Virus record (IMG/VR): IMGVR_UViG_3300042298_002704
Length of the DNA stretch: 14,783 bases
Reading direction: 5' to 3' (one strand)
Source: a virus
Taxonomy: Duplodnaviria; Heunggongvirae; Uroviricota; Caudoviricetes
The position numbers were made by a program, and so were the translations under genes. This document shows, one piece after another, positions 1,865 through 14,783 of the stretch. Below the pieces are notes generated by a model. The model searched no databases. It was not told the origin of the DNA and saw only the letters and a program-made list of their open reading frames with translations. Position 1 is the first letter of the stretch. Each line of letters opens with the position of its first letter.

Positions 1865-1882
1865 TTACATATTTATATTTAA
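1865..1882 (+). promoter_or_regulatory. Candidate phage late promoter TTACATATTTATATTTAA
   Basis: Lies in the only large intergenic gap of the head operon. It is 16/18 identical to TTAGATACTTATATTTAA upstream of the minus-strand GIY-YIG gene (14775-14758). Function is inferred. Confidence 0.5.
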
Positions 1883-1983: not shown

Positions 1984-3012
1984 ATGGCAAAGAAGAACAT
2001 TTTAGCAGAAGCAATTGCTGATGCCAAAGATTTGCGCGAAACCGCAGTCGCAAACGCAAAAATCGCATTGGAAGAAACATTCACCCCAACTTTACAACGT
2101 TTGGTTTCAACCCGAATTCAAGAAGAAGATGAAGACGGAGAAGTTGACATTGACTTGAATTTTTCCGGTGGTGAAGATACGGCAATGGGTTTTGATACGT
2201 TTGATGACGGCGGTGACGAAGAATCTGAACCAGTAGCAGATGAAGATGAAATGGAAATGGAATCTTTAATGCGTGAACTTGACGGAATGGACGACGATGA
2301 ACCGGTCATGGAATATGATGAAGAAGAACTTGAAGAAGCACTTTCTCGTGTATTTGAAAGTGACGATGAAATGGAGTTGGACGAAGAATTTGACGGTGAA
2401 GAACTTGAAGAAGGTGAAGAAGAAGATTGGCAAGACCCTATCGGTGAAAGTTATGACGAAGAAGAACTTGAAGAAGCACTTTCTCGTGTATTTGAAATGG
2501 ATGGGCTTGGCGATGATCTTGACATGGGTGAAAATCACGAAGATGGTTCTGCATTCACTGAAAATCCTCCTTCCGGACCGCAATTCTTGGAACGTCGTAG
2601 ACTTCGCAATGAAAACGCAAAACTTAGATCACAATTGAAAAAACTGCAAAAACAACTGAATGAAAGTTTACGTGCAAATGTAACTTATAAAAAGGTTCTT
2701 AACGAAGTTAATCTATTAAATTCAAAACTTATGTATAATACCAAAGTATTGCGTAAATTTGATTTGACAGAAGGTCAGCGCGAAAGAATTCTTAACAGTT
2801 TTGACCGCGCAGGTTCGGTCCGTGAAGTTGAATTAGTTTATACCACTGTTTGTGAAGCGTTTAACAAAAAATCAACCAAGACCAGAATGACAGAAGGTTT
2901 TGCATCAAAAAATGTTAGACAGATCAATCCTTCCCGTCAAGGAAACATTGTAAATGAAGGTTTGGTTGATAGAATGCAACGTTTGGCAAACATTAAAAGA
3001 TTAGATGACTAA
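1984..3012 (+). CDS. Prohead core scaffold protein (functional analogue of T4 gp22)
   Basis: 342 aa, directly upstream of the major capsid gene. It has an N-terminal helix (LAEAIADAKDLRETAVANAKIALEETF), a very acidic disordered middle, a coiled coil (ENAKLRSQLKKLQKQLNES...LNEVNLLNSKLMY) and a C-terminal RMQRLANI tail typical of scaffolds in T4-like large phages. Confidence 0.85.
   Translation: MAKKNILAEAIADAKDLRETAVANAKIALEETFTPTLQRLVSTRIQEEDEDGEVDIDLNFSGGEDTAMGFDTFDDGGDEESEPVADEDEMEMESLMRELDGMDDDEPVMEYDEEELEEALSRVFESDDEMELDEEFDGEELEEGEEEDWQDPIGESYDEEELEEALSRVFEMDGLGDDLDMGENHEDGSAFTENPPSGPQFLERRRLRNENAKLRSQLKKLQKQLNESLRANVTYKKVLNEVNLLNSKLMYNTKVLRKFDLTEGQRERILNSFDRAGSVREVELVYTTVCEAFNKKSTKTRMTEGFASKNVRQINPSRQGNIVNEGLVDRMQRLANIKRLDD
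2314..2497 (+). repeat. 46-nt direct repeat inside the scaffold gene (2314-2359 and 2452-2497) encoding YDEEELEEALSRVFE
   Basis: The copies differ at one base (gat/gac), and the last 40 nt are identical. A partial third copy (gaagaacttgaagaag) lies at 2398-2413. Confidence 0.9.
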
Positions 3013-3014
3013 AC

Positions 3015-3050
3015 AACCTTTAAAGGTTAATTTAAACAAAAAAATAGGAG
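3015..3050 (+). promoter_or_regulatory. MCP leader: 14-bp palindrome AACCTTTAAAGGTT (3015-3028) and Shine-Dalgarno TAGGAG (3045-3050)
   Basis: Read directly from the 49-nt gap between scaffold and MCP. The SD is 11 nt from the ATG at 3062. Confidence 0.6.
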
Positions 3051-3061
3051 AAAATGAATAA

Positions 3062-4729
3062 ATGAATATTAGCGATTTGCTACCAAAAGATGCGTATGCA
3101 AACCAACGTAAACAAGCACAAATGCTGACCCGTAAGTGGGAAAAGACGGGCTTGTTGGAAGGTTTGCGCGGCGCAGAAAAAGGAAATATGGCGCAACTCT
3201 TGGAAAATCAAGCGCGCCAATTAGTAACAGAAGCAAACCAAACTGGAACCGTAGCAGGTTCGGAAGAATGGTCGGGCATTGCTCTTCCCTTGATCCGCCG
3301 TATTTTTGCGGAAGTGAGTGCAAAAGACTTCGTTTCCGTTCAGCCAATGAATATGCCTTCTGGTCTTGTATTCTGGTTGGATGTTAAATACGGAACTGGA
3401 CAGCCCGGATTTAATACCAATTCTGGGAAAGATTCTCAAAATGATAGTGTTTTCGGCGTAAGTGATCCCGCCAAAGGAACAGGTGCTTCTTACGGATGGT
3501 CTACTCCGAGTGAGGGTCTTTATGGTCCCGGACGTTTTGGTTACACTATTAATGATTATTCAAGTTCTGCATTGGGTGTCGCGGGCGCAGTGAGTTCGAC
3601 TCAATTTGTGACTGGATCGGTTTCTGCAATTGATTATAATTTCAGTTCTGAATTTTCGCAGTCAATTTTGGTAAATACCACGTCCAGATTACACAAAATT
3701 ACCGTTTCGACCGCATCTATTAGCGGGTTCGATACAGTAGGCGTTCGTGCGTTTACATTATCAAATACAACCAATAATTTGGTGTATGATATTTATAACG
3801 AATTTACTAAGTACAATAAAGACGCTGGAACGGTAACGTTCATTGTGTCGGGCGCAGCCCTTGCTGCAGCTGACCGGATTGTTGTAAATTATCACAAACA
3901 ACCAACTTCAATTACCAGAGGTGACTTTGAAGCAGGTAAAACTCAAGCTGGTTCAAACATTGATACTGATTTGGATATTCCAGAATTGAGCCTTGAATTG
4001 CGTCAAGATCCAATTGTTGCTAAAACTCGTAAGTTGAAAGCAAAATGGACTCCTGAATTTGCACAAGACTTGAATGCATACCAGAACATTGACGCTGAGG
4101 CTGAATTGACTGGTATCTTGGGCGAATATATTTCTCAGGAAATTGACCTCGAAATCTTGGATATGTTGGTTTCAGAAGCACCGAGCGCACATACCGATTA
4201 CTGGTCTACCCGTATTGGTTATGAATATAACGGTTCTTCATTTAACCCAATTACTGCCAACTTGACAGCCTACACGCAAGGAACTTGGTTCCAAACACTT
4301 GGAACTAAAATCCAGAAAATGTCAAATAGAATCCACCAAGCAACTGTTCGCGGTGGCGCAAACTTCTTGGTTTGTTCTCCGTTAGTTGCAACTATTTTGG
4401 AATCTATTCCGGGATATGCTGCCGATACTGATGGTAACCAAGCGAAATTCTCAATGGGTGTTCAAAAAATTGGTGCGTTGAATAACCGTTTCCAAGTTTA
4501 CAAAAACCCATACATGAAAGAGAATTTGATTTTGATGGGTTATCGCGGTTCGCAGTGGCTCGAGACGGGGGCCTACTACTCGCCTTATATTCCTTTGATT
4601 ATGACCCCAACAATTCTTGACCCAGACAACTTTACACCGAGAAAAGGGGTAATGACGAGGTACGCAAAAGGTGTAACTCGTCCCGAATTTTACGGTAAAT
4701 TATATGTCGAAGGATTGAACACCCTTTAA
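3062..4729 (+). CDS. gp23: Major capsid protein, T4 gp23-like
   Basis: 555 aa with gp23 motifs: KWEKTGLLEG, MAQLLENQ, LPLIRR, VQPMNMPSGLVF, AKTRKLKAKWTPEFAQDL, DAEAELT.IL...I..EID.EI, RGGANFLVCSP, GAYYSPYIPL, FTPRKGVMTRYA. A likely maturation site is LVTE/A at residue 57. Confidence 0.97.
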   Translation: MNISDLLPKDAYANQRKQAQMLTRKWEKTGLLEGLRGAEKGNMAQLLENQARQLVTEANQTGTVAGSEEWSGIALPLIRRIFAEVSAKDFVSVQPMNMPSGLVFWLDVKYGTGQPGFNTNSGKDSQNDSVFGVSDPAKGTGASYGWSTPSEGLYGPGRFGYTINDYSSSALGVAGAVSSTQFVTGSVSAIDYNFSSEFSQSILVNTTSRLHKITVSTASISGFDTVGVRAFTLSNTTNNLVYDIYNEFTKYNKDAGTVTFIVSGAALAAADRIVVNYHKQPTSITRGDFEAGKTQAGSNIDTDLDIPELSLELRQDPIVAKTRKLKAKWTPEFAQDLNAYQNIDAEAELTGILGEYISQEIDLEILDMLVSEAPSAHTDYWSTRIGYEYNGSSFNPITANLTAYTQGTWFQTLGTKIQKMSNRIHQATVRGGANFLVCSPLVATILESIPGYAADTDGNQAKFSMGVQKIGALNNRFQVYKNPYMKENLILMGYRGSQWLETGAYYSPYIPLIMTPTILDPDNFTPRKGVMTRYAKGVTRPEFYGKLYVEGLNTL

Positions 4730-4757
4730 TTTTTGATAATTAACTGGTTTTAAAATT

Positions 4758-4791
4758 GGCTTAACTCATTAATTTGGGTTAAGCCTTTTTT
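4758..4791 (+). terminator. Intrinsic terminator of the head operon
   Basis: GGCTTAACTCA-TTAATT-TGGGTTAAGCC (11-bp stem, one U-G pair) followed by TTTTTT, 28 nt after the MCP stop. Confidence 0.85.
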
Positions 4792-4812
4792 GTTATTGAG
4801 ATGTTAAACAAT

Positions 4813-4843
4813 TTTGAAAATTGAAATATTATACATATCTTTG
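4813..4843 (+). promoter_or_regulatory. Bacteroidota housekeeping-sigma promoter (-33 TTTG / -7 TAnnTTTG)
   Basis: TTTG (4813-4816), a 19-nt spacer and TATCTTTG (4836-4843), ending 15 nt before the ATG at 4859. It matches the established Bacteroides/Flavobacterium consensus. Confidence 0.75.
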
Positions 4844-4858
4844 TAAAAACATTAAAAT

Positions 4859-6961
4859 ATGAATTGTAAAATTTGTAACAAAGAATTAACTAAAAAGCAA
4901 ACTCAATTTTGCTCTATTGAATGTAAATCAAAGTCACAGGGTCAACAACCAAAAGAAGTTTTTGATAATACCAAAATTTACAAAAGCAAAATTGACGGTA
5001 AAGAATTTAGTCTTGGAGGGCTTCGAGCCGGAGCATTGTTAAAATATTCGGAAAAAACTTTAAATAAAGAATTTAACATTAATGATTGGGAGATCGTTGA
5101 CAATCCAAAAAACAATGATCGGCGATGGAATTGTCCGCATTGTGATTGGTCAGGTAAAACGTTAAATGGTGTAGATAATGGTGGCTGGGTTGCAAAACAT
5201 TTATTAACTCGACACACAATTGATAAAGTAACTCATGTAGAACAGTTTCCAGATGATTCGATATTGTGGCCAAATCAGTTAATCAAGGCTCAGAAAAAAG
5301 TTAAAATTAACGAATCGCCCGAAAATCGAGTTCAGTGTATGGTGTGTGGGGAATTTATGTCAAGAATTAATAATTCGCATTTGAAAACGCACGGAATGAC
5401 CGAAGTTGAATATAAATTAAAGTACGGTAAGGATTCTATTTCTTCAAAAGCGTTCCGCAAAAGAATGTCCGAAATTTATTATCAAAATGATAAGATGCAA
5501 TCAAAATTATCCCGGTCGAAATACGAAGATGAACTTTGTGAGTTTTTCAATGCGTTGGGAATTGAAGTAGTTACCAATAATAAATCTATGCTAAGTATGG
5601 ATATAGATTTATATTTACCCGAATTCAAACTGGCTATCGAGTTTAATGGTCTTTATTTTCATTCTGAACTTGGGGGCGAAAAAACTGAAATGTATCATTT
5701 AAATAAAACAAAAAAATGTGAACAAAATGGTATTCAGTTAATTCATATATTTGAAGATGAATGGGTTAATAAACGTGAAATTGTTTCAAGTAGGCTGAAA
5801 AATCTTGTAAAGAAAACTGAAAATGTTGTGTATGCGCGAAAGTGTAATTTAAGAGAAGTCTCGTATCAAGAAGCAAAAACCTTTTTAAATGTAAATCATT
5901 TACAGGGATCGAACTCAAATATGCCTGTTCGGTTAGGACTTTATTCGAATGACGAACTCGTGTCATTGATGACATTTTCAAAAGTTAGAAACTCAACTGG
6001 AAATAAAATTAAGTCTGAAAACGATTGGGAATTGTTACGATTTTGCAACAAGTTAAATTTTAACGTAATTGGCGGTGCAAGTAAACTATTAAAATATTTT
6101 GAAATTAACTTTAACCCCAATAACATAACTTCGTTTGCAGATCGACGATGGACACCATCGTTCAAAAATTCATTATATGATGAATTGAAGTTCACATTGA
6201 CTTCAAAAGGTTCGCCTAATTATTGGTATTTGGTCGAACCTATGAAACGTCATCACCGTTTTAATTTTACAAAACATCGAATTATTGAAAGGTTCCCCGA
6301 TGCAGATAAAAATGAAAGTGAATGGCAAAATATGGTAAATTTGGGCTTTGATCGAATTTGGGATTGTGGTTCGTTAAAATATGAAAAGAGGTTTGAAAGA
6401 AATTCAATTGTAAATAAGGATGAACCAAACGAACGCTCTCACGAAATCATAAACAAGCCCAAACGTAGAAGAAAACGCAAAGAAACTACGCGAAATATTT
6501 CGGACGTTAAATGTCAAATATGCAGAAATTCATATTCAATTGTCGGAATTGCATCTCATTTTATTCGTAACCATGAGATGACTGTTGATGAATATGTTTC
6601 AAAATTTGGAGAATATCGTCCATCTAAATTAAAAGAACTTGAAATAAAAAACAAGTCTGTCGGAGATTTTACTTGTAAAATTTGTGGATTCGAATGTAGA
6701 GGCGAAAAGCACTTATCAGTTCATGTATTGAACCAGCATAATTTGAAAAAACTTGATTATGTAATTCAATATTTATTTAATGGGCAAATACCAAAATGTA
6801 AATGCGGCTGCGGAATTGAAGTTGGAATTTTAAGTTATTCGCCATATTATCGAGAATTTATTTCGGGACACAATTCAAGAAATGGGTTGAATTCGATGAG
6901 TGGCAGACAACATTCAGAAGAAAGTAAAAATAAGATGTCCAAACCAAAACGAAAAAAATAA
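4859..6961 (+). CDS. Free-standing Hef-like homing endonuclease: multiple Zn fingers + Vsr-like PD-(D/E)xK nuclease + Mom-like GNAT domain + NUMOD3
   Basis: Zn motifs include CKIC...FCSIEC, CPHC..KHLLTRH, CMVC..SHLKTH, CQIC..SHFIRNH, CKIC..HVLNQH and CKCGCG. Nuclease core: SKYEDEL...DIDLYLPEFKLAIEFNGLYFHS...LIHIFEDEW. GNAT-like block: NHLQG...WELLRFC...GGASKLL...SFADRRW...LY...IWDCG. C-terminal GRQHSEESKNKMS is NUMOD3-like. Confidence 0.75.
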   Translation: MNCKICNKELTKKQTQFCSIECKSKSQGQQPKEVFDNTKIYKSKIDGKEFSLGGLRAGALLKYSEKTLNKEFNINDWEIVDNPKNNDRRWNCPHCDWSGKTLNGVDNGGWVAKHLLTRHTIDKVTHVEQFPDDSILWPNQLIKAQKKVKINESPENRVQCMVCGEFMSRINNSHLKTHGMTEVEYKLKYGKDSISSKAFRKRMSEIYYQNDKMQSKLSRSKYEDELCEFFNALGIEVVTNNKSMLSMDIDLYLPEFKLAIEFNGLYFHSELGGEKTEMYHLNKTKKCEQNGIQLIHIFEDEWVNKREIVSSRLKNLVKKTENVVYARKCNLREVSYQEAKTFLNVNHLQGSNSNMPVRLGLYSNDELVSLMTFSKVRNSTGNKIKSENDWELLRFCNKLNFNVIGGASKLLKYFEINFNPNNITSFADRRWTPSFKNSLYDELKFTLTSKGSPNYWYLVEPMKRHHRFNFTKHRIIERFPDADKNESEWQNMVNLGFDRIWDCGSLKYEKRFERNSIVNKDEPNERSHEIINKPKRRRKRKETTRNISDVKCQICRNSYSIVGIASHFIRNHEMTVDEYVSKFGEYRPSKLKELEIKNKSVGDFTCKICGFECRGEKHLSVHVLNQHNLKKLDYVIQYLFNGQIPKCKCGCGIEVGILSYSPYYREFISGHNSRNGLNSMSGRQHSEESKNKMSKPKRKK

Positions 6962-6962
6962 G

Positions 6963-6977
6963 TTAACAACTTGTTAA
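6963..6977. repeat. Perfect inverted repeat TTAACAA-C-TTGTTAA (possible operator)
   Basis: A 7-1-7 palindrome directly after the endonuclease stop and 13 nt upstream of a -33 box. Confidence 0.5.
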
Positions 6978-6990
6978 TGTTCAAAAAACA

Positions 6991-7022
6991 TTTGGTAGGT
7001 TCAAAAAATGCACCTACTTTTG
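6991..7022 (+). promoter_or_regulatory. Bacteroidota housekeeping-sigma promoter for the accessory operon
   Basis: TTTG (6991-6994), a 20-nt spacer and TACTTTTG (7015-7022), ending 19 nt before the ATG at 7042. Confidence 0.7.
6995..7021 (+). terminator. Possible intrinsic terminator overlapping the promoter
   Basis: GTAGGTTCA-AAAAA-TGCACCTAC (8 of 9 pairs) followed by TTTT, downstream of the endonuclease gene. Confidence 0.45.
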
Positions 7023-7041
7023 TGTATAAAATTTTTGAAAC

Positions 7042-7248
7042 ATGACCATAATACTAACCTTTATTTACCTGATATCCAATCGCTCGCTAATTGTTTATAA
7101 ATATGATTATCAAGCAGCGATTGGTTCTTTGGGAATAATGCGTTCCCTTGGTTGGATTATTGCAAATATTCAAGTTAATGAAACGATTTTGCAAGAACCT
7201 CCGTTTATTTGTCGAACTTTTAACTCAATACCAGAAAAATATCTATGA
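7042..7248 (+). CDS. Hypothetical protein
   Basis: 68 aa, first ORF behind the promoter, with ATGA overlap into the next gene. No recognised motif. Confidence 0.45.
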   Translation: MTIILTFIYLISNRSLIVYKYDYQAAIGSLGIMRSLGWIIANIQVNETILQEPPFICRTFNSIPEKYL

Positions 7249-7616
7249 TAAACATAAATAGTTACTTTTCATTTGATGTGAACGTTTTTGACCAGCCAGT
7301 CAAAAGATCAAAATATGAATACCCGTATTCATACGACGCTCACATTATTCATCGTCTACGAGACAATGTTGACGGTATGACTTCAGTTTATTCGGATCGG
7401 ATGATGCACTGGGGTTGGGAAAAATTTCACGATTCCTGTCAAGAAATATTTGGGGATAGCGGGCAATTGTTCAACACCTCAAAAAGAACTCCCAAGTTGA
7501 TTGAAAAATTCTTGCAACGTTATTTTGACGAACCTGAACTTCAACTAATTGCAGTTGAGGAAGGTTGTAACGTTTCAAATGGTTACCCGTATTGGGTATT
7601 TCACTTTAAAAAATGA
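7245..7616 (+). CDS. Conserved phage hypothetical protein
   Basis: 123 aa with a conserved-looking pattern seen in phage proteins of unknown function: YPYSYD, VYSDR...W, FG..GQ, IEKFL..Y, EGCNVSNGYPYWVFHF. Confidence 0.75.
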   Translation: MININSYFSFDVNVFDQPVKRSKYEYPYSYDAHIIHRLRDNVDGMTSVYSDRMMHWGWEKFHDSCQEIFGDSGQLFNTSKRTPKLIEKFLQRYFDEPELQLIAVEEGCNVSNGYPYWVFHFKK

Positions 7617-7622
7617 ATTACC

Positions 7623-7829
7623 ATGTTCGAAATCGGAGATATTGTTGCATATAGGAAATGGGATTGGACACATTGCCAGTTTCATCCCGATAAATGGGTT
7701 ATCATTGACCGTGACCATATTCATCTACAATATGATGATTACGTTTGGGAATATACAATTCAAAATCAGGAAACTGGCGAAGTTATAACAAACGTAACAG
7801 ATATTCAAATAAAAAACTTTTATGAGTAA
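7623..7829 (+). CDS. Hypothetical protein (small beta-rich, F.IGD.V start)
   Basis: 68 aa filling the gap between neighbours. The MFEIGDIV start is typical of small SH3/KOW-like phage proteins. Confidence 0.6.
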   Translation: MFEIGDIVAYRKWDWTHCQFHPDKWVIIDRDHIHLQYDDYVWEYTIQNQETGEVITNVTDIQIKNFYE

Positions 7830-8412
7830 GATAACCTTCATAGGCGACGTTCATGGCAAGGTTCATGAATATAAAAAAATTGTTGACAAATGTGAATTTA
7901 GCATTTGTGTAGGTGATGTTGGATTCGAACCTGAATTCAACTGGTTGAAGAAGCAAACATTTGATGGTACTCATTATATTGTTCCGGGAAATCATGATTA
8001 TATCCCAGATAGATATTCATTTCCGTATATTGGTGATTATGATGAAATTGAATATTATTCAATTTTTATGGTTCGCGGAGCCGAATCAATCGATAAACAT
8101 ATTCGAATTGAAGGTTTGGATTGGTTCGCAAATGAAGAACTTTCGTATTCAGAACAACTTGAAGCGTTTGACGAATATATTAAGGTTAAACCTGAAATTG
8201 TCGTTTCCCACGATTGTCCGCAGTCGGTTATGGAAAAACTTTTTGGTTATCCCGAAAAATCACAAACCAGAACTATGTTAGAAATGATGTTTCAAGAACA
8301 CCAACCTCAACTTTGGGTTTTTGGCCATCATCACCGATCAAAGGACGTTCAAATAAATGGAACAAGGTTTGTTTGTTTAAATGAACTTGAAACAATGACA
8401 TTGGAACTGTAA
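7822..8412 (+). CDS. Calcineurin-like metallophosphoesterase
   Basis: All five motifs are present: IGDVHG, VGDVG, PGNHD, VSHDCP, FGHHH. Confidence 0.92.
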   Translation: MSKITFIGDVHGKVHEYKKIVDKCEFSICVGDVGFEPEFNWLKKQTFDGTHYIVPGNHDYIPDRYSFPYIGDYDEIEYYSIFMVRGAESIDKHIRIEGLDWFANEELSYSEQLEAFDEYIKVKPEIVVSHDCPQSVMEKLFGYPEKSQTRTMLEMMFQEHQPQLWVFGHHHRSKDVQINGTRFVCLNELETMTLEL

Positions 8413-8431
8413 ACTATTAAAAAATAAATAA

Positions 8432-9268
8432 ATGATAAAAAGATTAATTCGAGAAAAAGTTTTTGAAACAAACTCAAGTTCGTGTCATTCAATTTCTTTG
8501 GGTAAGGATACTGGTAAACAATTTCTACTCGATACCATTTATCCGGATCAAAACGGAATCATTACTTTAACTGGTGGTGAATTTGGTTGGGAATGGTTTA
8601 AAGAGAATGATGCATTCGAAAAGGCAAATTATGCCGCCGTAGCATCAATGTATAATGATTCATTTAGGGAAACATTAATCCAAGTAATCAAGGATCAAAC
8701 CGGATGTGAAGAAGTTATCTTTAACGTTATAGGCGAAACAAGTTACATCAATCATAATTCTGTGGGAACCTGTCCGACTGATTATGACGGGTTAAAGGAT
8801 TTCATATTCAATAAAAATTCATGGCTGTTCGGGGGAAATGATAATTCTTCTCCTGATCCAACCTTTTATCATGTTCCCGAATATAAGGACGGGAAAATGA
8901 TCCAACCTATATATAAATGGGAATTGGTAATTGATGGATTTAAAAAAACCACCAAGTTTTTAACCTTCCCTTCCAGTGAAGAAATTGAAAATGGATTGGA
9001 ATCATTAATCGGTGGCGTATATTACAATAATGGTGTATTTGACGATGATAATGGGTTTTATGCACAAATAAATAGGAATACAAAGCAATGGCTCTATTAT
9101 TCTTCATATCGCCTTCCTGCTGATATTGAAAATGGAATTATTTATTTCGTTACAGACGATTATTTGCAACCTGCCGGCAAAATGCCGTATCAAGAACGTG
9201 AAAAACTTGCAAGAGAATTTTATAAAAAAACCGCCCAAGCGGTAAAATTTTCGATCAATGAACTTTAA
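8432..9268 (+). CDS. Conserved phage protein of the FETNSSSxHS family, function unknown
   Basis: N-terminal LIREKVFETNSSSCHS, then GGEFGW, KANYAA, YINHNS and LFGGNDN. It overlaps the radical SAM gene by 11 nt. Confidence 0.75.
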   Translation: MIKRLIREKVFETNSSSCHSISLGKDTGKQFLLDTIYPDQNGIITLTGGEFGWEWFKENDAFEKANYAAVASMYNDSFRETLIQVIKDQTGCEEVIFNVIGETSYINHNSVGTCPTDYDGLKDFIFNKNSWLFGGNDNSSPDPTFYHVPEYKDGKMIQPIYKWELVIDGFKKTTKFLTFPSSEEIENGLESLIGGVYYNNGVFDDDNGFYAQINRNTKQWLYYSSYRLPADIENGIIYFVTDDYLQPAGKMPYQEREKLAREFYKKTAQAVKFSINEL

Positions 9269-10136
9269 AAACGGTAACGCTGAAATAACCATTTATAACG
9301 ATGGGACACGCATAATTGAGTTTGAAGATCAGTTGAAATTAGATTGGCCTTTAAATATTGACATTCGGGTTTCAAATCGTTGTTCATTTGGTTTTAATCC
9401 TAAAATCAATTCCGCCTTTTGTTCCTTTTGTCATGAAAGTGCAAGGACTGACGGAGGTGAATGTGATTATGAAATTCTTAAAGATAAATTAAAAGATTTA
9501 CCTGCTGGAATTGAATTGGCAATTGGAGGAAATGAAATTACGGGTGAATTGTGTAACTTTTTAAATTGGGCGTCATTTGGCAAAAGGTTTATTTGTAATT
9601 TAACCGTGAATCAAGGTCATATTTACAAATATAGGTTCCCATTGATGACATTAATTAAATTTAAAGTTATTAAAGGACTTGGAATTTCGTATCGTTCAAG
9701 TCTTAAATGGAATATTCCAAAAGAATTTTTGAATTATGAAAATACTGTCTTTCACGTAATTGCTGGAATTGATTCAGTTCAGGACATTCTTACACTGGCA
9801 GAACGCGGAGTCAAAAAGGTTTTGGTTCTCGGAGAAAAGAATTTTGGTTTCAACGAAGGTAAGGTCGATTTGACAACTCGAAGTCATAAAGAATGGTATC
9901 GGAATGTTAGAAAATTATTTGATACCTTCGACGTAGTTTCATTTGATAACCTTGCACTTGACCAATTGAATATTAACAGATTCTTTTCAAACGATAAATG
10001 GAGTGAATTTAACCAAGGTGAACATTCATTCTATATCAATGCAGTTGATGGTTATTTTTCTCCATCTTCTCGTTCTAACGATAAAGCAGATTGGAATTCG
10101 GTTTCAATCAAAGATTATTTTCAAGTCAAAGCCTAA
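9258..10136 (+). CDS. Radical SAM superfamily protein with expanded Cys motif
   Basis: IDIRVSNRC-SFGFNPKINSAF-CSFCHES (CX12CX2C), ELAIGG (GGE-like), CNLTVN, GLGIS and a SFYINAV..SPSS C-terminal strand. Confidence 0.8.
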   Translation: MNFKNGNAEITIYNDGTRIIEFEDQLKLDWPLNIDIRVSNRCSFGFNPKINSAFCSFCHESARTDGGECDYEILKDKLKDLPAGIELAIGGNEITGELCNFLNWASFGKRFICNLTVNQGHIYKYRFPLMTLIKFKVIKGLGISYRSSLKWNIPKEFLNYENTVFHVIAGIDSVQDILTLAERGVKKVLVLGEKNFGFNEGKVDLTTRSHKEWYRNVRKLFDTFDVVSFDNLALDQLNINRFFSNDKWSEFNQGEHSFYINAVDGYFSPSSRSNDKADWNSVSIKDYFQVKA

Positions 10137-10141
10137 ATTTC

Positions 10142-10211
10142 GCCCTCTAATCAATTCTTTTTTATTTGTTGAAGTTAGGTACTTATAGATAAAGAAAGTC
10201 GATTATAGGGC
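10142..10211. other. Intergenic long imperfect stem-loop
   Basis: GCCCTCTAATC (10142-10152) pairs with GATTATAGGGC (10201-10211) at 10 of 11 positions. Inner TTCTTT (10155-10160) pairs with AAAGAA (10191-10196). Confidence 0.45.
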
Positions 10212-10231
10212 ATTTTAAAACGTTTAAAATT

Positions 10232-10420
10232 ATGTTTGATTTACTTGATGAAATGTGCGCCAGTATTATCGAATGTTCGGTTGAAGAATACATTGAACTT
10301 ACTAAAAAAGTTCCCGATACTGACGCGGAATATTTAGGCGACTTGCTTGGTAAAATTATTTTTCAAAATGAATCTGCTGAAAAAGAATTTAAAGAATATT
10401 TTGATAAATTGAAAAAATGA
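10232..10420 (+). CDS. Hypothetical protein
   Basis: 62 aa, acidic and helical, with an A/T-rich leader and ATGA overlap into the next ORF. Confidence 0.6.
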   Translation: MFDLLDEMCASIIECSVEEYIELTKKVPDTDAEYLGDLLGKIIFQNESAEKEFKEYFDKLKK

Positions 10421-10734
10421 ACAAATTTAATACCTATCCTGAATCGTGGCGAGAAATTTCAAATAAAGAATTTACTCGTGCCTTTTTCTCCTATCAAAAG
10501 GAACCTTTGGAATATCGCCAAATGTATATTGATAAAGATGATATTAAAATTGGAATGTGTCATGCAAATTTATTTGTTATTAAAGGAACCCGAAATCAAT
10601 ATGGTGAAGACGGTTTAGGTCTTGCAATGTTTGAAGTTGAACAAGAAACCAAGTTTGCAAAGTTCGGTTCAGAAGAAAACTGGCAAAAATTCCAATCATA
10701 TATAGCCTCGCAATTTAGCGGTGATAATTCTTAA
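10417..10734 (+). CDS. Hypothetical protein
   Basis: 105 aa, coupled to its neighbours. Confidence 0.65.
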   Translation: MNKFNTYPESWREISNKEFTRAFFSYQKEPLEYRQMYIDKDDIKIGMCHANLFVIKGTRNQYGEDGLGLAMFEVEQETKFAKFGSEENWQKFQSYIASQFSGDNS

Positions 10735-11551
10735 ACAAATGAAATACATTAATTTAGTTTTTCCAGAAAAAAGTGACCATATATTCAAAATTTCAAAATT
10801 TCCGGATGGTCAAGTAAATGCTTCATTTCCGTTTATTTATTCTGTTGAACCATATCGAATTATAAGTCGAATGTCGTCATACGAAGACTTGTATAAAATT
10901 CGAGCAGTTAATCAAGTTTTAAGAGATGCAAATGTTCAGTATGTTGAACTTTATTGCCCATATATTCTTGCAGCAAGATCGGATCGTAAATTTCAGGAAT
11001 ACCAAAGTTTTGATTTGAAATTGGTTGCGCAAGATATTAATTCTTGTAAATTTGATAAAGTTTTTGTACTTGATCCACATTCGGATGTTTTACCAGCACT
11101 TGTTGAAAACTGCATTCCGTTGGATGCGTTAACTGGTTGGTTGAGTTGGATTAAAAATCCTACCCATTTTTGGGAAAATAAAACTTTGATAAGTCCGGAT
11201 GCAGGAGCGTTTAAAAAGTTGTTTAAAATTTCAGAACAATTGAATGTCCCACTTATAACTGGTTCAAAGGTTAGATTTGATGGTAAAATCGATACTGTTT
11301 TTCATGGCGATGTAAATGGTAAAGAATGTGTCATTGTGGATGATATTTGTGATGGTGGTAGAACGTTTGTTCAACTTGCAAACAAATTGAAAGACTTAGG
11401 AGCCAGTAAAGTAATTTTGATGGTCACGCATGGTATTTTTTCCAATGGTCTAACCTTGGAAGGGATTGATGAAATTTACACCACAAATTCATATCGAGAA
11501 TTTGATTTGTCTGGAATTTCAGATAGGTTTCATGTTATAAATGTTTATTAG
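10721..11551 (+). CDS. prs: Ribose-phosphate pyrophosphokinase-like protein (probable NARP1 Adps, ADPR pyrophosphokinase); real start may be ATG 10739
   Basis: FPDGQ, PYILAARSDR, LDPHS, ISPDAGA, VIVDDICDGGRTF (PRT-family PRPP-binding loop) and THGIFS. A NAMPT-like gene lies 1.3 kb downstream. Confidence 0.9.
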   Translation: MIILKQMKYINLVFPEKSDHIFKISKFPDGQVNASFPFIYSVEPYRIISRMSSYEDLYKIRAVNQVLRDANVQYVELYCPYILAARSDRKFQEYQSFDLKLVAQDINSCKFDKVFVLDPHSDVLPALVENCIPLDALTGWLSWIKNPTHFWENKTLISPDAGAFKKLFKISEQLNVPLITGSKVRFDGKIDTVFHGDVNGKECVIVDDICDGGRTFVQLANKLKDLGASKVILMVTHGIFSNGLTLEGIDEIYTTNSYREFDLSGISDRFHVINVY

Positions 11552-11553
11552 AA

Positions 11554-11823
11554 ATGATAGATTTAAATCAAGTTCCACTTAAAATTCAAATACAGTTAAT
11601 TGAACATTATAAACATATCGAGTCGGAATGTAGAACCTTTGTTGGAAATTATTCTAAGACGTGTCCAGCCGATAGCACAGTACAAGATTTTTTGGATTAT
11701 GTGTATCAATCATCATTTGAATACACAGTAGTTGCATTTTTTATATTTAAAAATGATGTTGAATATAAAGAAAAGATTTGGTTAGTAATATTTGATAAAA
11801 TAAACTCGCTATTAAATGAATAA
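11554..11823 (+). CDS. Hypothetical protein
   Basis: 89 aa, tightly packed between prs and the HAD gene. Confidence 0.6.
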   Translation: MIDLNQVPLKIQIQLIEHYKHIESECRTFVGNYSKTCPADSTVQDFLDYVYQSSFEYTVVAFFIFKNDVEYKEKIWLVIFDKINSLLNE

Positions 11824-12256
11824 ATTTCAAAAAAGGTTAATTGACGAATGGTCACAATACGGTAAAATAATCATTGCCGTTGATTTTGACGACACTATTT
11901 CCCCCTTCAAATTTAATGAAATTGAGGATAATCAATTTTATGTTCGAGTTTGGAATCTTCTAAATCAATGTTATCAAACGGGTGCATATATCGTTTGTCA
12001 TACAAGTTGCAATCCAGATCGTTACGAATTTATTCAAAATGAATTTAAACGAAATGGTATTCCAGAAGTTCATATCAACCAAACTCCAATTGATTTACCT
12101 TACGGAAATACAGGTTCAAAAGTTTATGCAAATATTTACTTGGATGACCGGGCAGGTTTAAATGAAGCATTGGAAATGTTGGAAACTGCATTATATCATC
12201 AACGAGGAAAACTTCAAAGTGAACGTTCATCGTATCCCGGTTCATTGGGATTTTAA
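11816..12256 (+). CDS. HAD-superfamily hydrolase (small phage type)
   Basis: Motif I IIAVDFDDT (DxDxT), motif II CHTS and motif IV YLDDR. Confidence 0.8.
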   Translation: MNKFQKRLIDEWSQYGKIIIAVDFDDTISPFKFNEIEDNQFYVRVWNLLNQCYQTGAYIVCHTSCNPDRYEFIQNEFKRNGIPEVHINQTPIDLPYGNTGSKVYANIYLDDRAGLNEALEMLETALYHQRGKLQSERSSYPGSLGF

Positions 12257-12266
12257 AAATAAAAAT

Positions 12267-12608
12267 ATGACTAAACTTTTTTATCGAATTGGTACTGATA
12301 CAAACGAAGGTTTATGGTATGACAAAAATGGTAATTTCACCGGATTGATTCATTCAAAGTTTGATTTTTGTACTAACTCGAAACTTGAAATGCCTTATGA
12401 TCCTGAAATTGTTGGTTATTTGTCAGTAGCAGATTCACTTGAACATTTATACCAATGGTTTACAAAACAGGATATTCTGAAATTGCAAGAATACGGTTTT
12501 TCAATTTTGGAATATAAATCGTTTGAATGGAAATTTTATCAACCATTTCAACATAACGTCATAAAACAAACATCATCAATATTAACCAATAAACTAATTT
12601 TAGTATGA
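12267..12608 (+). CDS. Conserved phage hypothetical protein (start moved from 12162 to ATG 12267)
   Basis: ATG 12267 follows the upstream stop (12256) and an A-rich leader. The longer start overlaps the HAD gene by 95 nt. The protein reads LFYRIG..EGLWYD..GNFTGLIH..FC.N..L.MP.D...GYLS...L..WF. Confidence 0.7.
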   Translation: MTKLFYRIGTDTNEGLWYDKNGNFTGLIHSKFDFCTNSKLEMPYDPEIVGYLSVADSLEHLYQWFTKQDILKLQEYGFSILEYKSFEWKFYQPFQHNVIKQTSSILTNKLILV

Positions 12609-12874
12609 AAGCACAGAAAAAACCAGTAATAATTGATTACATTCAAGTTGAAACACCAATAAATTTGAGCGAAATATTTGAATGGGTAACTTCATTTGGT
12701 CAAAATTTTTACCAACATTTCAAATATAATATTCACACAGAAGAATTTTCAGTTAAAACGCTTGAAGGGGCGTCATATTCAGTTTCGAGTGATGACGTGA
12801 TAATTCGAGGCATTAAGGGCGAATATTATCCTTGTAAAAAGGATATTTTTGAACAAACTTACGAAATAATTTAA
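12605..12874 (+). CDS. Conserved small phage protein (KKPV...TLEG...YPCKxDIFxxTYE family, PGDYG-like)
   Basis: KKPVIID, KTLEG and DVIIRGIKGEYYPCKKDIFEQTYE form a very common phage signature. Confidence 0.8.
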   Translation: MKAQKKPVIIDYIQVETPINLSEIFEWVTSFGQNFYQHFKYNIHTEEFSVKTLEGASYSVSSDDVIIRGIKGEYYPCKKDIFEQTYEII

Positions 12875-12891
12875 ACTAAAATAATAAAAAC

Positions 12892-13731
12892 ATGAGTTTT
12901 AAAATTAATTCACTTTATTTGACCGACGGATACAAAACGTCTCACAAAGAAATGCTTGCCAAAGGTACAACTCGATTGTACGGAACTTGGATTCCGAGAA
13001 GTACCAAACACGCTCCGAAAGGAGTTTCAAAAATAGTTTCCTTTGGGCAGCAAATGACTTGGAAGTATATTCACGACCAATTTCAAGAAAACTTCTTTGA
13101 ATTGAGTTGGCAAGATGCACAAGTTTTTGTTTCTGATATGAACCTTTATTTAGGTTTACCTTTTGATGGTTCACATTTCAGACAACTTCACGAACTTGGG
13201 TATTTGCCCATTCGAGTCAAATCGTTGCCAGAAGGAATTGAAACAAATCCGAATATCCCGCATATGACCTTTGTCAATACAGTTGACGGGTTTGCGTGGT
13301 TGACTTTATATTTGGAAACGTTGGTTTCAAGTTTAGCATGGAAACCAAGTACATCAGCAACCATTGCGCTACAATATCGTCGTAATGTTGAAAAATGGGT
13401 TAAAAAAACTGATCCAAATCAATCATTTTTGATTCCGTTTCTTTGTCATGACTTTTCAGCACGAGGTTTGAATCCTCACGATATGATCGCATCCGGGTTA
13501 GGTCATGCAACAAGTTTTAGAGGTTCGGATACGTTGCCAGTAATTCCTGCTGCAAGATATTATTATAACGAACCTCAAAATGAAGTTTGTATTAATTCGA
13601 TTCCGGCTTCCGAGCATTCCTGCGCAACCGGGAATATTTTATTGTTTGAAGAAGAATATTATGTTCAAGTAACTTACGATGATGACGGAAATGTGGTTTC
13701 CGAAATTGAAGTTGATGCTCCTGCTTTATAA
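12892..13731 (+). CDS. nadV: Nicotinamide phosphoribosyltransferase-like protein (probable NARP1 Namat), N-terminal ~half only
   Basis: TDGYKTSH, PIRVKSLPEG, WLTLYLET, WKPST.AT, HDFSARG, GSDT and IPASEHS are present. It stops at 279 aa, without the SIVSD/RPDSG-type C-terminal motifs of full-length (~500 aa) NAMPTs. Confidence 0.88.
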   Translation: MSFKINSLYLTDGYKTSHKEMLAKGTTRLYGTWIPRSTKHAPKGVSKIVSFGQQMTWKYIHDQFQENFFELSWQDAQVFVSDMNLYLGLPFDGSHFRQLHELGYLPIRVKSLPEGIETNPNIPHMTFVNTVDGFAWLTLYLETLVSSLAWKPSTSATIALQYRRNVEKWVKKTDPNQSFLIPFLCHDFSARGLNPHDMIASGLGHATSFRGSDTLPVIPAARYYYNEPQNEVCINSIPASEHSCATGNILLFEEEYYVQVTYDDDGNVVSEIEVDAPAL

Positions 13732-14744
13732 TGCCCTTCAATCCAACCATCTAAAATATATTTTTCCATATCAATTCTAAGTATTTTTTTATTTTTTAAT
13801 GTATTTGGGTTATAAATCCAAGCATTGATTGATTTGGGTTTTTCAGGTTTAATTCGATATGTTGACCTGCTTCCTAATTTATAACCAATATTTAGATATG
13901 ATTCGACTGATTCTTCTAACACATTTATATGTTTTTCGACATCGGTTTCTGGATTATAAACATTTACTAATTTAGTTGGTTTAGGCTTACGTTTAATTTC
14001 GTAATCCGGATTTTCAGTTAAAAACTTATCTAATTCGTGAGTCAGAATTCGTTTGTGTTTTTTTAATCGTTCATTATAAACGTATGTTCTACCAAGATTG
14101 ATTCCCGATTTAACATTTCCCTTTGAATAACCGTTACTCAAATACCATTCCAAATCATTTGGATTTATATATTTGAGTTGCTTAGTTTCATTATGATGAA
14201 CTACTATTTTATCGCTTGTTGTATTTTTTACTGAAAAATTCCCAGTTTTTATTAATTCGGGAATTGAATTTTTGGGAACATATTCAAATTTATTATTAAT
14301 TAAGTTAAAAACTGGCGCATGATCCTTACGACCTGACCCAATGATGAAACCTAAACTGGTATATTTTTCAACTTCATTAAAATTAACATATTTGACTTTG
14401 CATTTTATCGGATCAAATAACGAAATTTTATCTTTATTATGACTGAATCCGTTTTGAGAATAAAATGGAAATCCGCCCTTTCCACCCAAAGTACAATTAT
14501 ATGTTGACCTATCTTGGACGAATTCGAAATCAACTAATTCTCGTTCTTTTTGAAGTGCTTCTTGAATAGTTTCAACAGAAAATAAAATTTCACGTTTAAA
14601 ATTATGTTTACCATATTTCTTAATTGCCTTCATTATTAATTTTCCGGAACCCATATATGGGTCAGTTTCAATATTTAACGAATAATGATATCCAATATAA
14701 ATTTTGGAATTTAGTAAATTGGTGATTTTGTAAATATAATACAT
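13674..14744 (-). CDS. GIY-YIG homing endonuclease (Seg-like) with ~6 C-terminal repeats; minus strand
   Basis: The reverse complement from 14744 reads ATG TAT TAT ATT TAC AAA = MYYIYK, so the track's '+' label is wrong. YIYKITN..N.KIYIG, YMGSG and AIKKYG..NF.REIL are present. It overlaps the nadV 3' end tail-to-tail by 58 nt. Confidence 0.9.
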   Translation of the reverse strand: MYYIYKITNLLNSKIYIGYHYSLNIETDPYMGSGKLIMKAIKKYGKHNFKREILFSVETIQEALQKERELVDFEFVQDRSTYNCTLGGKGGFPFYSQNGFSHNKDKISLFDPIKCKVKYVNFNEVEKYTSLGFIIGSGRKDHAPVFNLINNKFEYVPKNSIPELIKTGNFSVKNTTSDKIVVHHNETKQLKYINPNDLEWYLSNGYSKGNVKSGINLGRTYVYNERLKKHKRILTHELDKFLTENPDYEIKRKPKPTKLVNVYNPETDVEKHINVLEESVESYLNIGYKLGSRSTYRIKPEKPKSINAWIYNPNTLKNKKILRIDMEKYILDGWIEGHYKAGASTSISETTFPSSS

Positions 14745-14752
14745 ATTTTTTT

Positions 14753-14775
14753 CTCCTTTAAATATAAGTATCTAA
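14753..14775 (-). promoter_or_regulatory. Candidate late promoter (TTAGATACTTATATTTAA) plus Shine-Dalgarno AAGGAG for the GIY-YIG gene
   Basis: The minus strand reads ...TTAGATACTTATATTTAAAGGAGAAAAAAATATG. The SD is 8 nt from the ATG, and the 18-mer is 16/18 identical to 1865-1882. Confidence 0.6.
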
Positions 14776-14783
14776 AAAATAAT

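What the first reader, a model, noticed from the sequence alone, without database searches (positions are those of the whole stretch)
13600..14783. NAMPT/Namat cut in half by an antisense homing endonuclease: possible genes-in-pieces anti-defence enzyme
Seen: the reading frame is intact through the SEHS motif, continues ~40 aa (acidic, natural-looking) and stops at 13731. A complete GIY-YIG gene fills 13674-14744 on the opposite strand with a 58-nt tail-to-tail overlap. No intron-like RNA core or intein is evident, since the endonuclease ORF occupies the whole insert. The window ends in an A-rich run (AAAAAATAAT) like the leaders of other accessory genes, so a second piece could start just outside. 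From recollection, the break falls in a variable loop before the SIVSD strand. Known precedent: phage Aeh1 nrdA is split by mobE yet functional as two polypeptides. Alternatives are a pseudogene or an intron whose core lies downstream.
Basis: partly seen in the sequence, partly recalled or inferred. Interest (0 to 1): 0.8.

Follow-up and report, generated by a model that had tools for sequence, protein, structure and literature searches.

The report
Phage Namat gene split by endonuclease
A phage gene for the enzyme that rebuilds NAD+ against bacterial defences is cut into two separately translated halves by a selfish GIY-YIG endonuclease gene; the inserted DNA also adds conserved, oppositely charged end pieces that probably hold the halves together.

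Summary
Observation confirmed. Window 12892-13731 (+) encodes the N-terminal 279 aa of a Namat/NAMPT-family enzyme. A 356-aa SegE-like GIY-YIG endonuclease gene lies antisense at 13674-14744, with a 58-nt overlap.

The predicted second piece exists. A 163-kb contig that matches window 2892-14783 with no mismatch carries a 270-aa C-half whose ATG lies 16 nt past the window end. The halves align to residues 9-253 and 254-487 of SpbetaL1 Namat, so nothing is lost.

No intron was found, and intein features are absent. Nearest cultured phages have one uninterrupted gene. Forty-six of the 120 best-scoring N-half relatives are broken at this same site, with at least four types of end-piece pairs. The inserts hold GIY-YIG, HNH or no endonuclease.

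The window's acidic beta-hairpin tail and basic head recur with different endonucleases and in hosts only 35-50% identical in the core. The tail stays about 70% identical, with synonymous codon changes. Core dN/dS is 0.07-0.14. A complex model scored 0.90 against 0.00 for the best control, but likeness to solved NAMPT structures may explain that.

This is a new member of the genes-in-pieces kind (Aeh1 nrdA/mobE). I found no published report. This scan already noted split Namat genes, mostly with HNH, in at least six other genomes. No activity or RNA data are available.

The parts
12892..13731 (+). Namat N-half ORF, 279 aa. Residues 1-248 are native enzyme and carry Y14, F188, R191, D213 and H242.
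   Evidence: PDB 9W5X residues 9-253 at E 5.6e-52, and phrog_448 positions 11-270 of 500. These residues are invariant in 21 N-halves.
13609..13620 (+). SEHS motif codons. Nucleotide identity to the nearest relative (L090) is lost from window 13597 onward.
13636..13728 (+). Insertion-derived C-terminal tail, residues 249-279. Net charge -9, pI 4.1. Predicted beta-hairpin at residues 257-274 (13660-13713).
   Evidence: The tail is conserved in L139, L079, L091 and L142 with synonymous codon changes.
13674..14744 (-). Free-standing SegE-like GIY-YIG homing endonuclease gene, 356 aa, GC 28.5%.
   Evidence: A 60%-identical orthologue sits in the same position in L139.
13674..13731 (.). 58-nt tail-to-tail overlap between the N-half and the endonuclease gene.
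14745..14783 (.). Divergent spacer. On the minus strand it holds AAGGAG (14758-14753), 8 nt before the endonuclease ATG, and an 18-nt element (14775-14758) that is 16/18 identical to window 1865-1882. On the plus strand it holds the A-rich leader of the C-half, whose ATG lies 16 nt past the window end.
10721..11551 (+). Prs-like (Adps candidate) gene, the likely pathway partner of Namat.
   Evidence: Pfam Pribosyl_synth and Pribosyltran hits on the matching gene. PDB best hits are PRPP synthetases at E 5e-21. Adps and Prs were not told apart.

Best explanation
A homing-endonuclease cassette sits in the loop that follows the catalytic SEHS strand of a phage Namat (NAMPT-family, NARP1-type) gene. 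The cassette turns one gene into two same-strand ORFs. The N-half (279 aa) ends in a cassette-derived acidic beta-hairpin tail. The C-half (270 aa) begins with a cassette-derived basic head and has its own ATG and A-rich leader. The antisense SegE-like GIY-YIG endonuclease has its own Shine-Dalgarno sequence and a promoter-like element. It presumably cuts cassette-free alleles in co-infecting relatives, so that the cassette and short flanks are copied in. The two polypeptides are made separately and reassemble without a covalent bond into a Namat protomer. The active site draws residues from both pieces. The tail and head probably add an electrostatic and beta-sheet clasp, as in Aeh1 NrdA-a/NrdA-b. 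Shown here: the architecture, the completeness of the partition, recurrence, sequence conservation and the absence of splicing elements. Inferred: separate translation, assembly, enzyme activity, the role of the tails and endonuclease activity.
For: The C-half was found and the partition is exact. Catalytic residues are divided between the halves and invariant in 21 N-halves and 19 C-halves. Nearest cultured phages have one uninterrupted gene. Forty-six of the 120 best N-half relatives stop at this site. Matching C-halves with consistent tail-head pairing were found. L139 has the same architecture, with N 60%, C 66% and endonuclease 60% identity to the window, which indicates long co-inheritance with all three ORFs intact. 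L091 keeps the split and the same tail/head type with no endonuclease in an 81-nt gap. L004 against L090 gives dN/dS of 0.066 for the N core and 0.142 for the C core. Against L079 and L142 the tail is 16/22 and 15/22 identical while the core is 49% and about 35% (my hand count from the alignment); six of the conserved codons are synonymous variants. The head is 11/12 identical to L139's, with five synonymous changes. Tail net charge is -7 to -12 and head net charge +5 to +6. No intron was found. Complex model: ipSAE 0.90 against a best control of 0.00. That mark was reached by 58 of 80 solved complexes and 2 of 110 mismatched pairs. Runs agree in at least 97% of contacts and partner pLDDT is at least 85. 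Tail residues 248-264 and head residues 1-17 lie in the confident interface. Against L090, nucleotide identity is lost exactly across the cassette and is then 84.6% for 182 nt, compared with 93% in the flanks.
Against: There are no RNA, protein or activity data. The complex score may only reflect likeness to solved single-chain NAMPT structures. The low dN/dS could partly predate the split. The C-half leader has no Shine-Dalgarno sequence, though neither do the phage's other accessory genes. One related split allele (L079) has a frameshifted C-half, so some copies may be decaying. The window's C-half has Met where SpbetaL1 Namat has the clamp residue Y396 (PMC12774641).
Confidence: 0.78

Rival explanations
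1. The gene is a pseudogene. The endonuclease insertion killed Namat and the halves are decaying remnants.
For: The insertion separates active-site residues. L079's C-half carries a frameshift and L140's gene has an internal stop.
Against: Both ORFs are intact in the window phage, in L139 at about 60-66% identity, and in dozens of other clusters. dN/dS is 0.07-0.14. Catalytic residues are invariant. The tail and head are conserved through synonymous changes.
Confidence: 0.08
2. The insert is a self-splicing intron carrying an antisense endonuclease gene, and the mRNA is spliced back to one ORF.
For: Phage genes are often interrupted by group I introns that carry GIY-YIG or HNH genes. Other sites in this gene family have intron-like short read-through tails.
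Against: No Rfam intron hit at E up to 1 in the locus, nor at gathering score in eight related split loci. The tail and head are conserved as protein. The C-half has its own conserved ATG. The L091 gap is only 81 nt, which I judge too short for a group I intron core (general knowledge, not a tool result).
Confidence: 0.02
3. It is a fractured gene with a split intein, and the halves are ligated by protein trans-splicing.
For: Fractured genes with a free-standing endonuclease between split-intein halves are known from marine phage metagenomes (PMC2677866). Charged N and C pieces recall split inteins.
Against: The tail is 31 aa and the head about 15 aa, together too short for a Hint fold. The tail does not start with Cys or Ser. 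The head does not end in His-Asn. The first native residue is Gly.
Confidence: 0.02
4. The halves no longer work together. One half, or both separately, has a new role such as ligand binding or regulation.
For: The N-half alone folds confidently in a model, with pLDDT 82.5.
Against: The C-half alone models poorly (pLDDT 58.5) but reaches 85-86 in the complex. Both halves are always found together and in order in the loci examined. Catalytic residues of both are invariant.
Confidence: 0.05

Closest known systems
Aeromonas phage Aeh1 nrdA-a / mobE / nrdA-b genes-in-pieces ribonucleotide reductase (Crona et al. 2011, PMC3045599, which cites Friedrich et al. 2007)
   Same: A free-standing homing endonuclease splits an enzyme gene inside its barrel. 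Active-site residues end up on two separately translated polypeptides. Short, insertion-derived, oppositely charged tails sit on the new C and N termini. No RNA or protein splicing is involved.
   Different: The host gene is an anti-defence NAD+ enzyme rather than RNR. The endonuclease is GIY-YIG and antisense, whereas mobE is an HNH family enzyme (per PMC3045599). Charge polarity is reversed: here the tail is acidic and the head basic. The split is widespread rather than a single case, with several tail/head types and exchangeable endonucleases. Function is shown for Aeh1 and only inferred here.
Namat of the NARP1 pathway (Bacillus phage SpbetaL1; PDB 9W5X/9W5W; PMC12774641; bioRxiv 10.1101/2024.02.11.579819)
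   Same: SpbetaL1 Namat is the best structural-sequence match of both halves (E 5.6e-52 and 5.6e-69, against about 1e-17 for human NAMPT). The catalytic core is conserved. A Phe sits at the F392 position in the GSFTYQ motif. A Prs-like gene lies nearby.
   Different: It is encoded in two pieces. Met replaces Y396 and Lys sits at the R40-equivalent position. Four small genes separate it from the Prs-like gene. Substrate preference (ADPR-PP or PRPP) is untested.
Fractured genes with split inteins and free-standing endonucleases (Dassa et al. 2009, PMC2677866)
   Same: The layout is enzyme N-part, endonuclease gene, enzyme C-part, in uncultured phages, with added peptides on both new termini.
   Different: The added peptides are far too short for an intein and lack its motifs. 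No ligation is expected.
T4 seg-type free-standing GIY-YIG endonucleases (Pfam SegE_GIY-YIG; review PMC2988022)
   Same: An N-terminal GIY-YIG domain is followed by an extended DNA-binding region. AT content is higher than in the flanks. Flanking sequence shows a co-conversion-like pattern.
   Different: The gene lies inside a coding region and antisense to it. The C-terminal region is made of repeated modules shared only with the L139 and L142 endonucleases.

Membership tests
Genes-in-pieces by free-standing homing endonuclease (Aeh1 nrdA type) | The gene is continuous in relatives but is two ORFs here, with no sequence lost. | tested here: met
Genes-in-pieces by free-standing homing endonuclease (Aeh1 nrdA type) | The endonuclease gene lies in the gap and is not part of an intron or intein. 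| tested here: met
   Intein motifs are absent.
Genes-in-pieces by free-standing homing endonuclease (Aeh1 nrdA type) | The new termini carry unique, oppositely charged tails. | tested here: met
   tail -9, pI 4.1; head +6, pI 11.4. Both are conserved.
Genes-in-pieces by free-standing homing endonuclease (Aeh1 nrdA type) | The halves are translated separately and reassemble into an active enzyme. | not testable with these tools
   Only a model is available: ipSAE 0.90 against a best control of 0.00.
Namat (NARP1) | NAMPT-like fold with a conserved catalytic core. | tested here: met
Namat (NARP1) | Selectivity clamp: aromatic residues at the F392 and Y396 positions, and a stacking residue in the beta1-beta2 loop (R40). 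| tested here: inconclusive
   Read from the and 17 alignments: Phe is present, Y396 is Met, and R40 is Lys. Criteria come from PMC12774641.
Namat (NARP1) | A partner Adps gene. | tested here: inconclusive
   A Prs-like gene lies at 10721-11551. Adps and Prs were not discriminated.
Namat (NARP1) | Makes NAD+ from ADPR-PP and nicotinamide. | not testable with these tools
   This needs an enzyme assay.
GIY-YIG homing endonuclease (SegE-like) | A GIY-YIG catalytic domain. | tested here: met
   PF19835 at 26.2 bits against a cut-off of 25; phrog_314 at 1.4e-29. The L139 orthologue also hits PF01541.
GIY-YIG homing endonuclease (SegE-like) | Site-specific cleavage and homing. | not testable with these tools
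   Only indirect signs: cassette-wide loss of identity against L090 and a lower-identity flank.
Group I or II intron | A conserved catalytic RNA core. | tested here: not met
Split intein (fractured gene) | Hint-fold halves with an N-terminal Cys or Ser, a terminal His-Asn, and a nucleophile at +1. | tested here: not met
   The tail is 31 aa and starts with Ile. The head is about 15 aa and the next native residue is Gly.

The most novel reading that the evidence does not exclude
The short tail/head pairs are portable, cassette-borne heterodimerisation modules. They let homing endonucleases settle inside essential or useful genes without killing them. The same acidic hairpin and basic head pair serves Namat/NAMPT genes only 35-50% identical in the core. 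It persists with GIY-YIG, HNH or no endonuclease. A second pair type (class B) turns up at a different position of the same gene in L141. If true, these are natural split-protein clasps that could work on unrelated proteins. That would explain how coding regions become safe harbours for endonucleases.
Probability: 0.4. Interest if true: 0.75.

Novelty: new member of a known kind. Interest (0 to 1): 0.58.

Why it matters
Crona et al. proposed that insertion-derived tails are a general way to neutralise gene fragmentation by mobile elements, with Aeh1 NrdA as the one case they tested biochemically. This Namat family offers many natural replicates: several tail/head types, swapped or lost endonucleases, and one ectopic site. 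That makes the idea directly testable by deletion, swapping and grafting experiments. It also matters for annotation. Half-length NAMPT or Namat ORFs in phage genomes and anti-defence catalogues should not be scored as truncated or absent.

Tried and rejected
- **Own assembly:** The genome search on the window's own assembly found it is not held. The nearest record, G001, is a 4.5-kb fragment with no match.
- **Phage megablast:** megablast against GenBank phages gave no match.
- **Endonuclease relatives:** IMG/VR relatives of the endonuclease share only the first 100 aa or so and gave no context.
- **Tail profile search:** a profile of the class A tails against 1.8 billion proteins mostly returned YD-type repeat proteins. 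The hairpin resembles one such repeat, so the search is unspecific. The only useful hit was P0275/L142.
- **L140:** its apparent headless C-half is a gene with an internal stop at another place, not a split at this site.
- **Adpp:** Adpp of NARP1-AP is a Macro-domain protein. The window's 146-aa gene between Adps and Namat (phrog_1238) is not shown to be one.
- **Saturation:** dN/dS for more distant pairs is saturated at synonymous sites and was not used.
- **Class D relationship:** the window's endonuclease and L090's 265-aa insert ORF show no significant similarity (E 0.34), so classes A and D are not simply diverged copies.

Full report
**1. The observation**

The window has a 279-aa ORF at 12892-13731 (+) and a 356-aa ORF at 13674-14744 (-), overlapping tail to tail by 58 nt. 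The plus-strand ORF matches only the first half of NAMPT-family proteins. It aligns to PDB 9W5X residues 9-253 of 491 (E 5.6e-52) and to phrog_448 positions 11-270 of 500. The minus-strand ORF is a SegE-like GIY-YIG endonuclease. It scores 26.2 bits against PF19835 (cut-off 25) and 1.4e-29 against phrog_314.

**2. The missing half**

The window's own assembly is not held. An exact-protein look-up found both proteins on many public contigs. Locus L004, from a 163-kb T4-like contig, equals window 2892-14783 without a mismatch and runs on past the window end.

- A 270-aa ORF starts 16 nt beyond the window end (L004:11908-12720).
- It aligns to 9W5X residues 254-487 at E 5.6e-69. The two ORFs therefore tile the enzyme exactly.
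- About 31 extra residues sit at the end of the N-half and about 15 at the start of the C-half.

**3. What the enzyme is**

9W5X is Namat of Bacillus phage SpbetaL1 (PMC12774641). Both halves match it far better than they match human or bacterial NAMPT, which score about 1e-17. A Prs-like gene lies at 10721-11551. The catalytic residues are invariant across 21 N-halves and 19 C-halves, and they are divided between the pieces. Of the published adenine clamp, Phe is present, but Y396 is Met and R40 is Lys. Namat membership is therefore likely but not settled.

**4. Splicing is unlikely**

- Rfam found no intron in the locus at E up to 1, nor in eight related split loci at gathering score.
- The end pieces are too short for an intein and lack its terminal residues.
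- In L091 the gap between the halves is only 81 nt.

**5. The site is a hot spot**

The nearest cultured phages, Leptolyngbya phage Lbo-JY46 and Tenacibaculum phage PTm1, have one continuous gene. So do most IMG/VR relatives.

Among the 120 best protein clusters found with the N-half, 46 stop within a few codons of the same point, just after the SEHS strand. They fall into at least four tail classes. The C-half search returned matching head classes. Contigs show a fixed tail-head pairing but varied inserts:

| Class | Insert between the halves | Loci |
|---|---|---|
| A | antisense GIY-YIG | window, L139, L142 |
| A | antisense HNH | L079 |
| A | nothing (81-nt gap) | L091 |
| B | antisense HNH-like endonuclease (phrog_1035, endonuclease VII) plus a 122-aa ORF | L027 |
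| C | sense HNH_3/NUMOD4 | L087 |
| D | antisense 264-265-aa endonuclease-like ORF | L088, L090 |

**6. Evidence that the split gene works**

- L139 is a different phage with the same layout. Its N-half is 60% identical to the window's, its C-half 66% and its endonuclease 60%. All three ORFs have therefore stayed intact over long shared descent.
- L090 is the window phage's nearest relative, with 93% nucleotide identity in the flanks. It carries a different cassette. Identity disappears exactly from the SEHS codons to about codon 19 of the C-half. It is then 84.6% for 182 nt before returning to 93%. This looks like a cassette exchange with a co-conversion-like tract.
- Between these two phages dN/dS is 0.066 for the N core and 0.142 for the C core.

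**7. The end pieces**

- Class A tails have a net charge of -7 to -12 (pI about 4.1). Class A heads are +5 to +6 (pI 10.6-11.4). This mirrors the Aeh1 NrdA tails, with the polarity reversed.
- AlphaFold2 models the tail as a beta-hairpin spanning residues 257-274, with pLDDT about 84 at its centre.
- The 22-residue hairpin is 16/22 identical between the window and L079, where the enzyme core is 49% identical.
- It is 15/22 identical between the window and L142, a gene with the canonical NAMPT HDFGYRG motif. There the core is about 35% identical (my count from the alignment) and the endonuclease 28%.
- In those two pairs six of the conserved residues use different codons.
- The head is 11/12 identical between the window and L139, with five synonymous changes.
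- The tail overlaps the endonuclease's C-terminus. That terminus differs between the window and L139 while the tail does not. Selection therefore appears to act on the tail.

**8. Complex model**

ESMFold2 scored the two halves at ipSAE 0.90 against 0.00 for the best of three controls.

- That mark was reached by 58 of 80 solved complexes and 2 of 110 mismatched pairs.
- Runs agree in at least 97% of contacts, and partner pLDDT is at least 85.
- My own alignments were used, so these calibration counts hold only roughly.
- Tail residues 248-264 and head residues 1-17 lie in the confident interface.
- The C-half alone models poorly, at pLDDT 58.5.
- The halves come from a fold that has been solved as a single chain, so the pass may reflect that likeness rather than binding.

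**9. Expression signals**

The C-half leader is A-rich and nearly repeats the N-half leader. Like the phage's other accessory genes, it has no Shine-Dalgarno sequence. The endonuclease has AAGGAG 8 nt before its ATG. It also has an 18-nt element that is 16/18 identical to one upstream of the head operon. This suggests late expression. The endonuclease gene is 28.5% GC against 35-38% for the halves.

**10. A portable module?**

In L141 the SEHS site is intact. The class B tail and head appear as a pair at another position of the gene, 19 nt apart and with no endonuclease between them. Class A persists with three different insert contents. Together these points suggest that the pairs travel as modules. 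This rests on a single contig for the ectopic case.

**11. Literature and earlier notes**

Full-text searches found no paper that describes a split Namat or nadV gene. The closest precedents are Aeh1 nrdA/mobE and fractured genes with split inteins. This scan had already reported split Namat genes, mostly with HNH endonucleases and charged tails, in at least six other genomes. The present case adds the GIY-YIG cassette and the class A pair.

**12. Limits**

No expression, binding or activity data exist.

Noticed in passing
L141:2060-5050: This Namat is intact at the SEHS site but broken further 3'. The class B tail and class B head sit as a pair 19 nt apart, with no endonuclease between them. 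A 33-aa middle piece follows, then a 382-aa DUF723 ORF, then the last piece.
   Followed up: partly
L091:4001-6599: Namat in three pieces. A class A split with no endonuclease in an 81-nt gap is followed by a second break after ..ITDNS. That break holds a sense-strand GIY-YIG/NUMOD gene (5636-6406), and a 61-aa third piece follows.
   Followed up: partly
P0097, P0030, P0058 (end ..NIVLGIGLT); P0090, P0105, P0028 (end ..NTRDTLGF plus 12 aa); L063:3935-4949: The gene has further recurrent truncation points, with short read-through tails that look intron-like. L063 has a sense-strand 254-aa ORF with a possible LAGLIDADG-like motif (not profile-tested) at the NTRDTFG site. Rfam found no intron at gathering score.
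   Followed up: partly
window 14758-14775 (-) and 1865-1882 (+): The 18-nt element upstream of the endonuclease is 16/18 identical to one upstream of the scaffold/capsid operon. Each precedes an AAGGAG, so it is a candidate late promoter.
   Followed up: partly
window 13660-13713: The class A tail hairpin (Y.V.V.YD..GN..SE) resembles a single unit of YD-type repeat proteins. These dominated a profile search of 1.8 billion proteins.
   Followed up: yes
P0002 residues 3-79; L139 endonuclease residues 3-98: phrog_447, annotated as 'NAD synthetase', matches the GIY-YIG domain of these endonucleases. The PHROG name may be a mislabel that arose from endonucleases lodged in NAD genes.
   Followed up: no
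L079:8592-9260; L140:3303-4786: Some related alleles look damaged. L079's C-half changes frame near residue 380 of the reference. L140 has a stop after GSDT, with the rest in another frame. These could be decay or sequencing errors.
   Followed up: no
window 11554-12874: Four small genes lie between the Prs-like gene and Namat. One matches phrog_1238 ('phosphoheptose isomerase') and others match unknown-function PHROGs. The same four are kept in L090.
   Followed up: no
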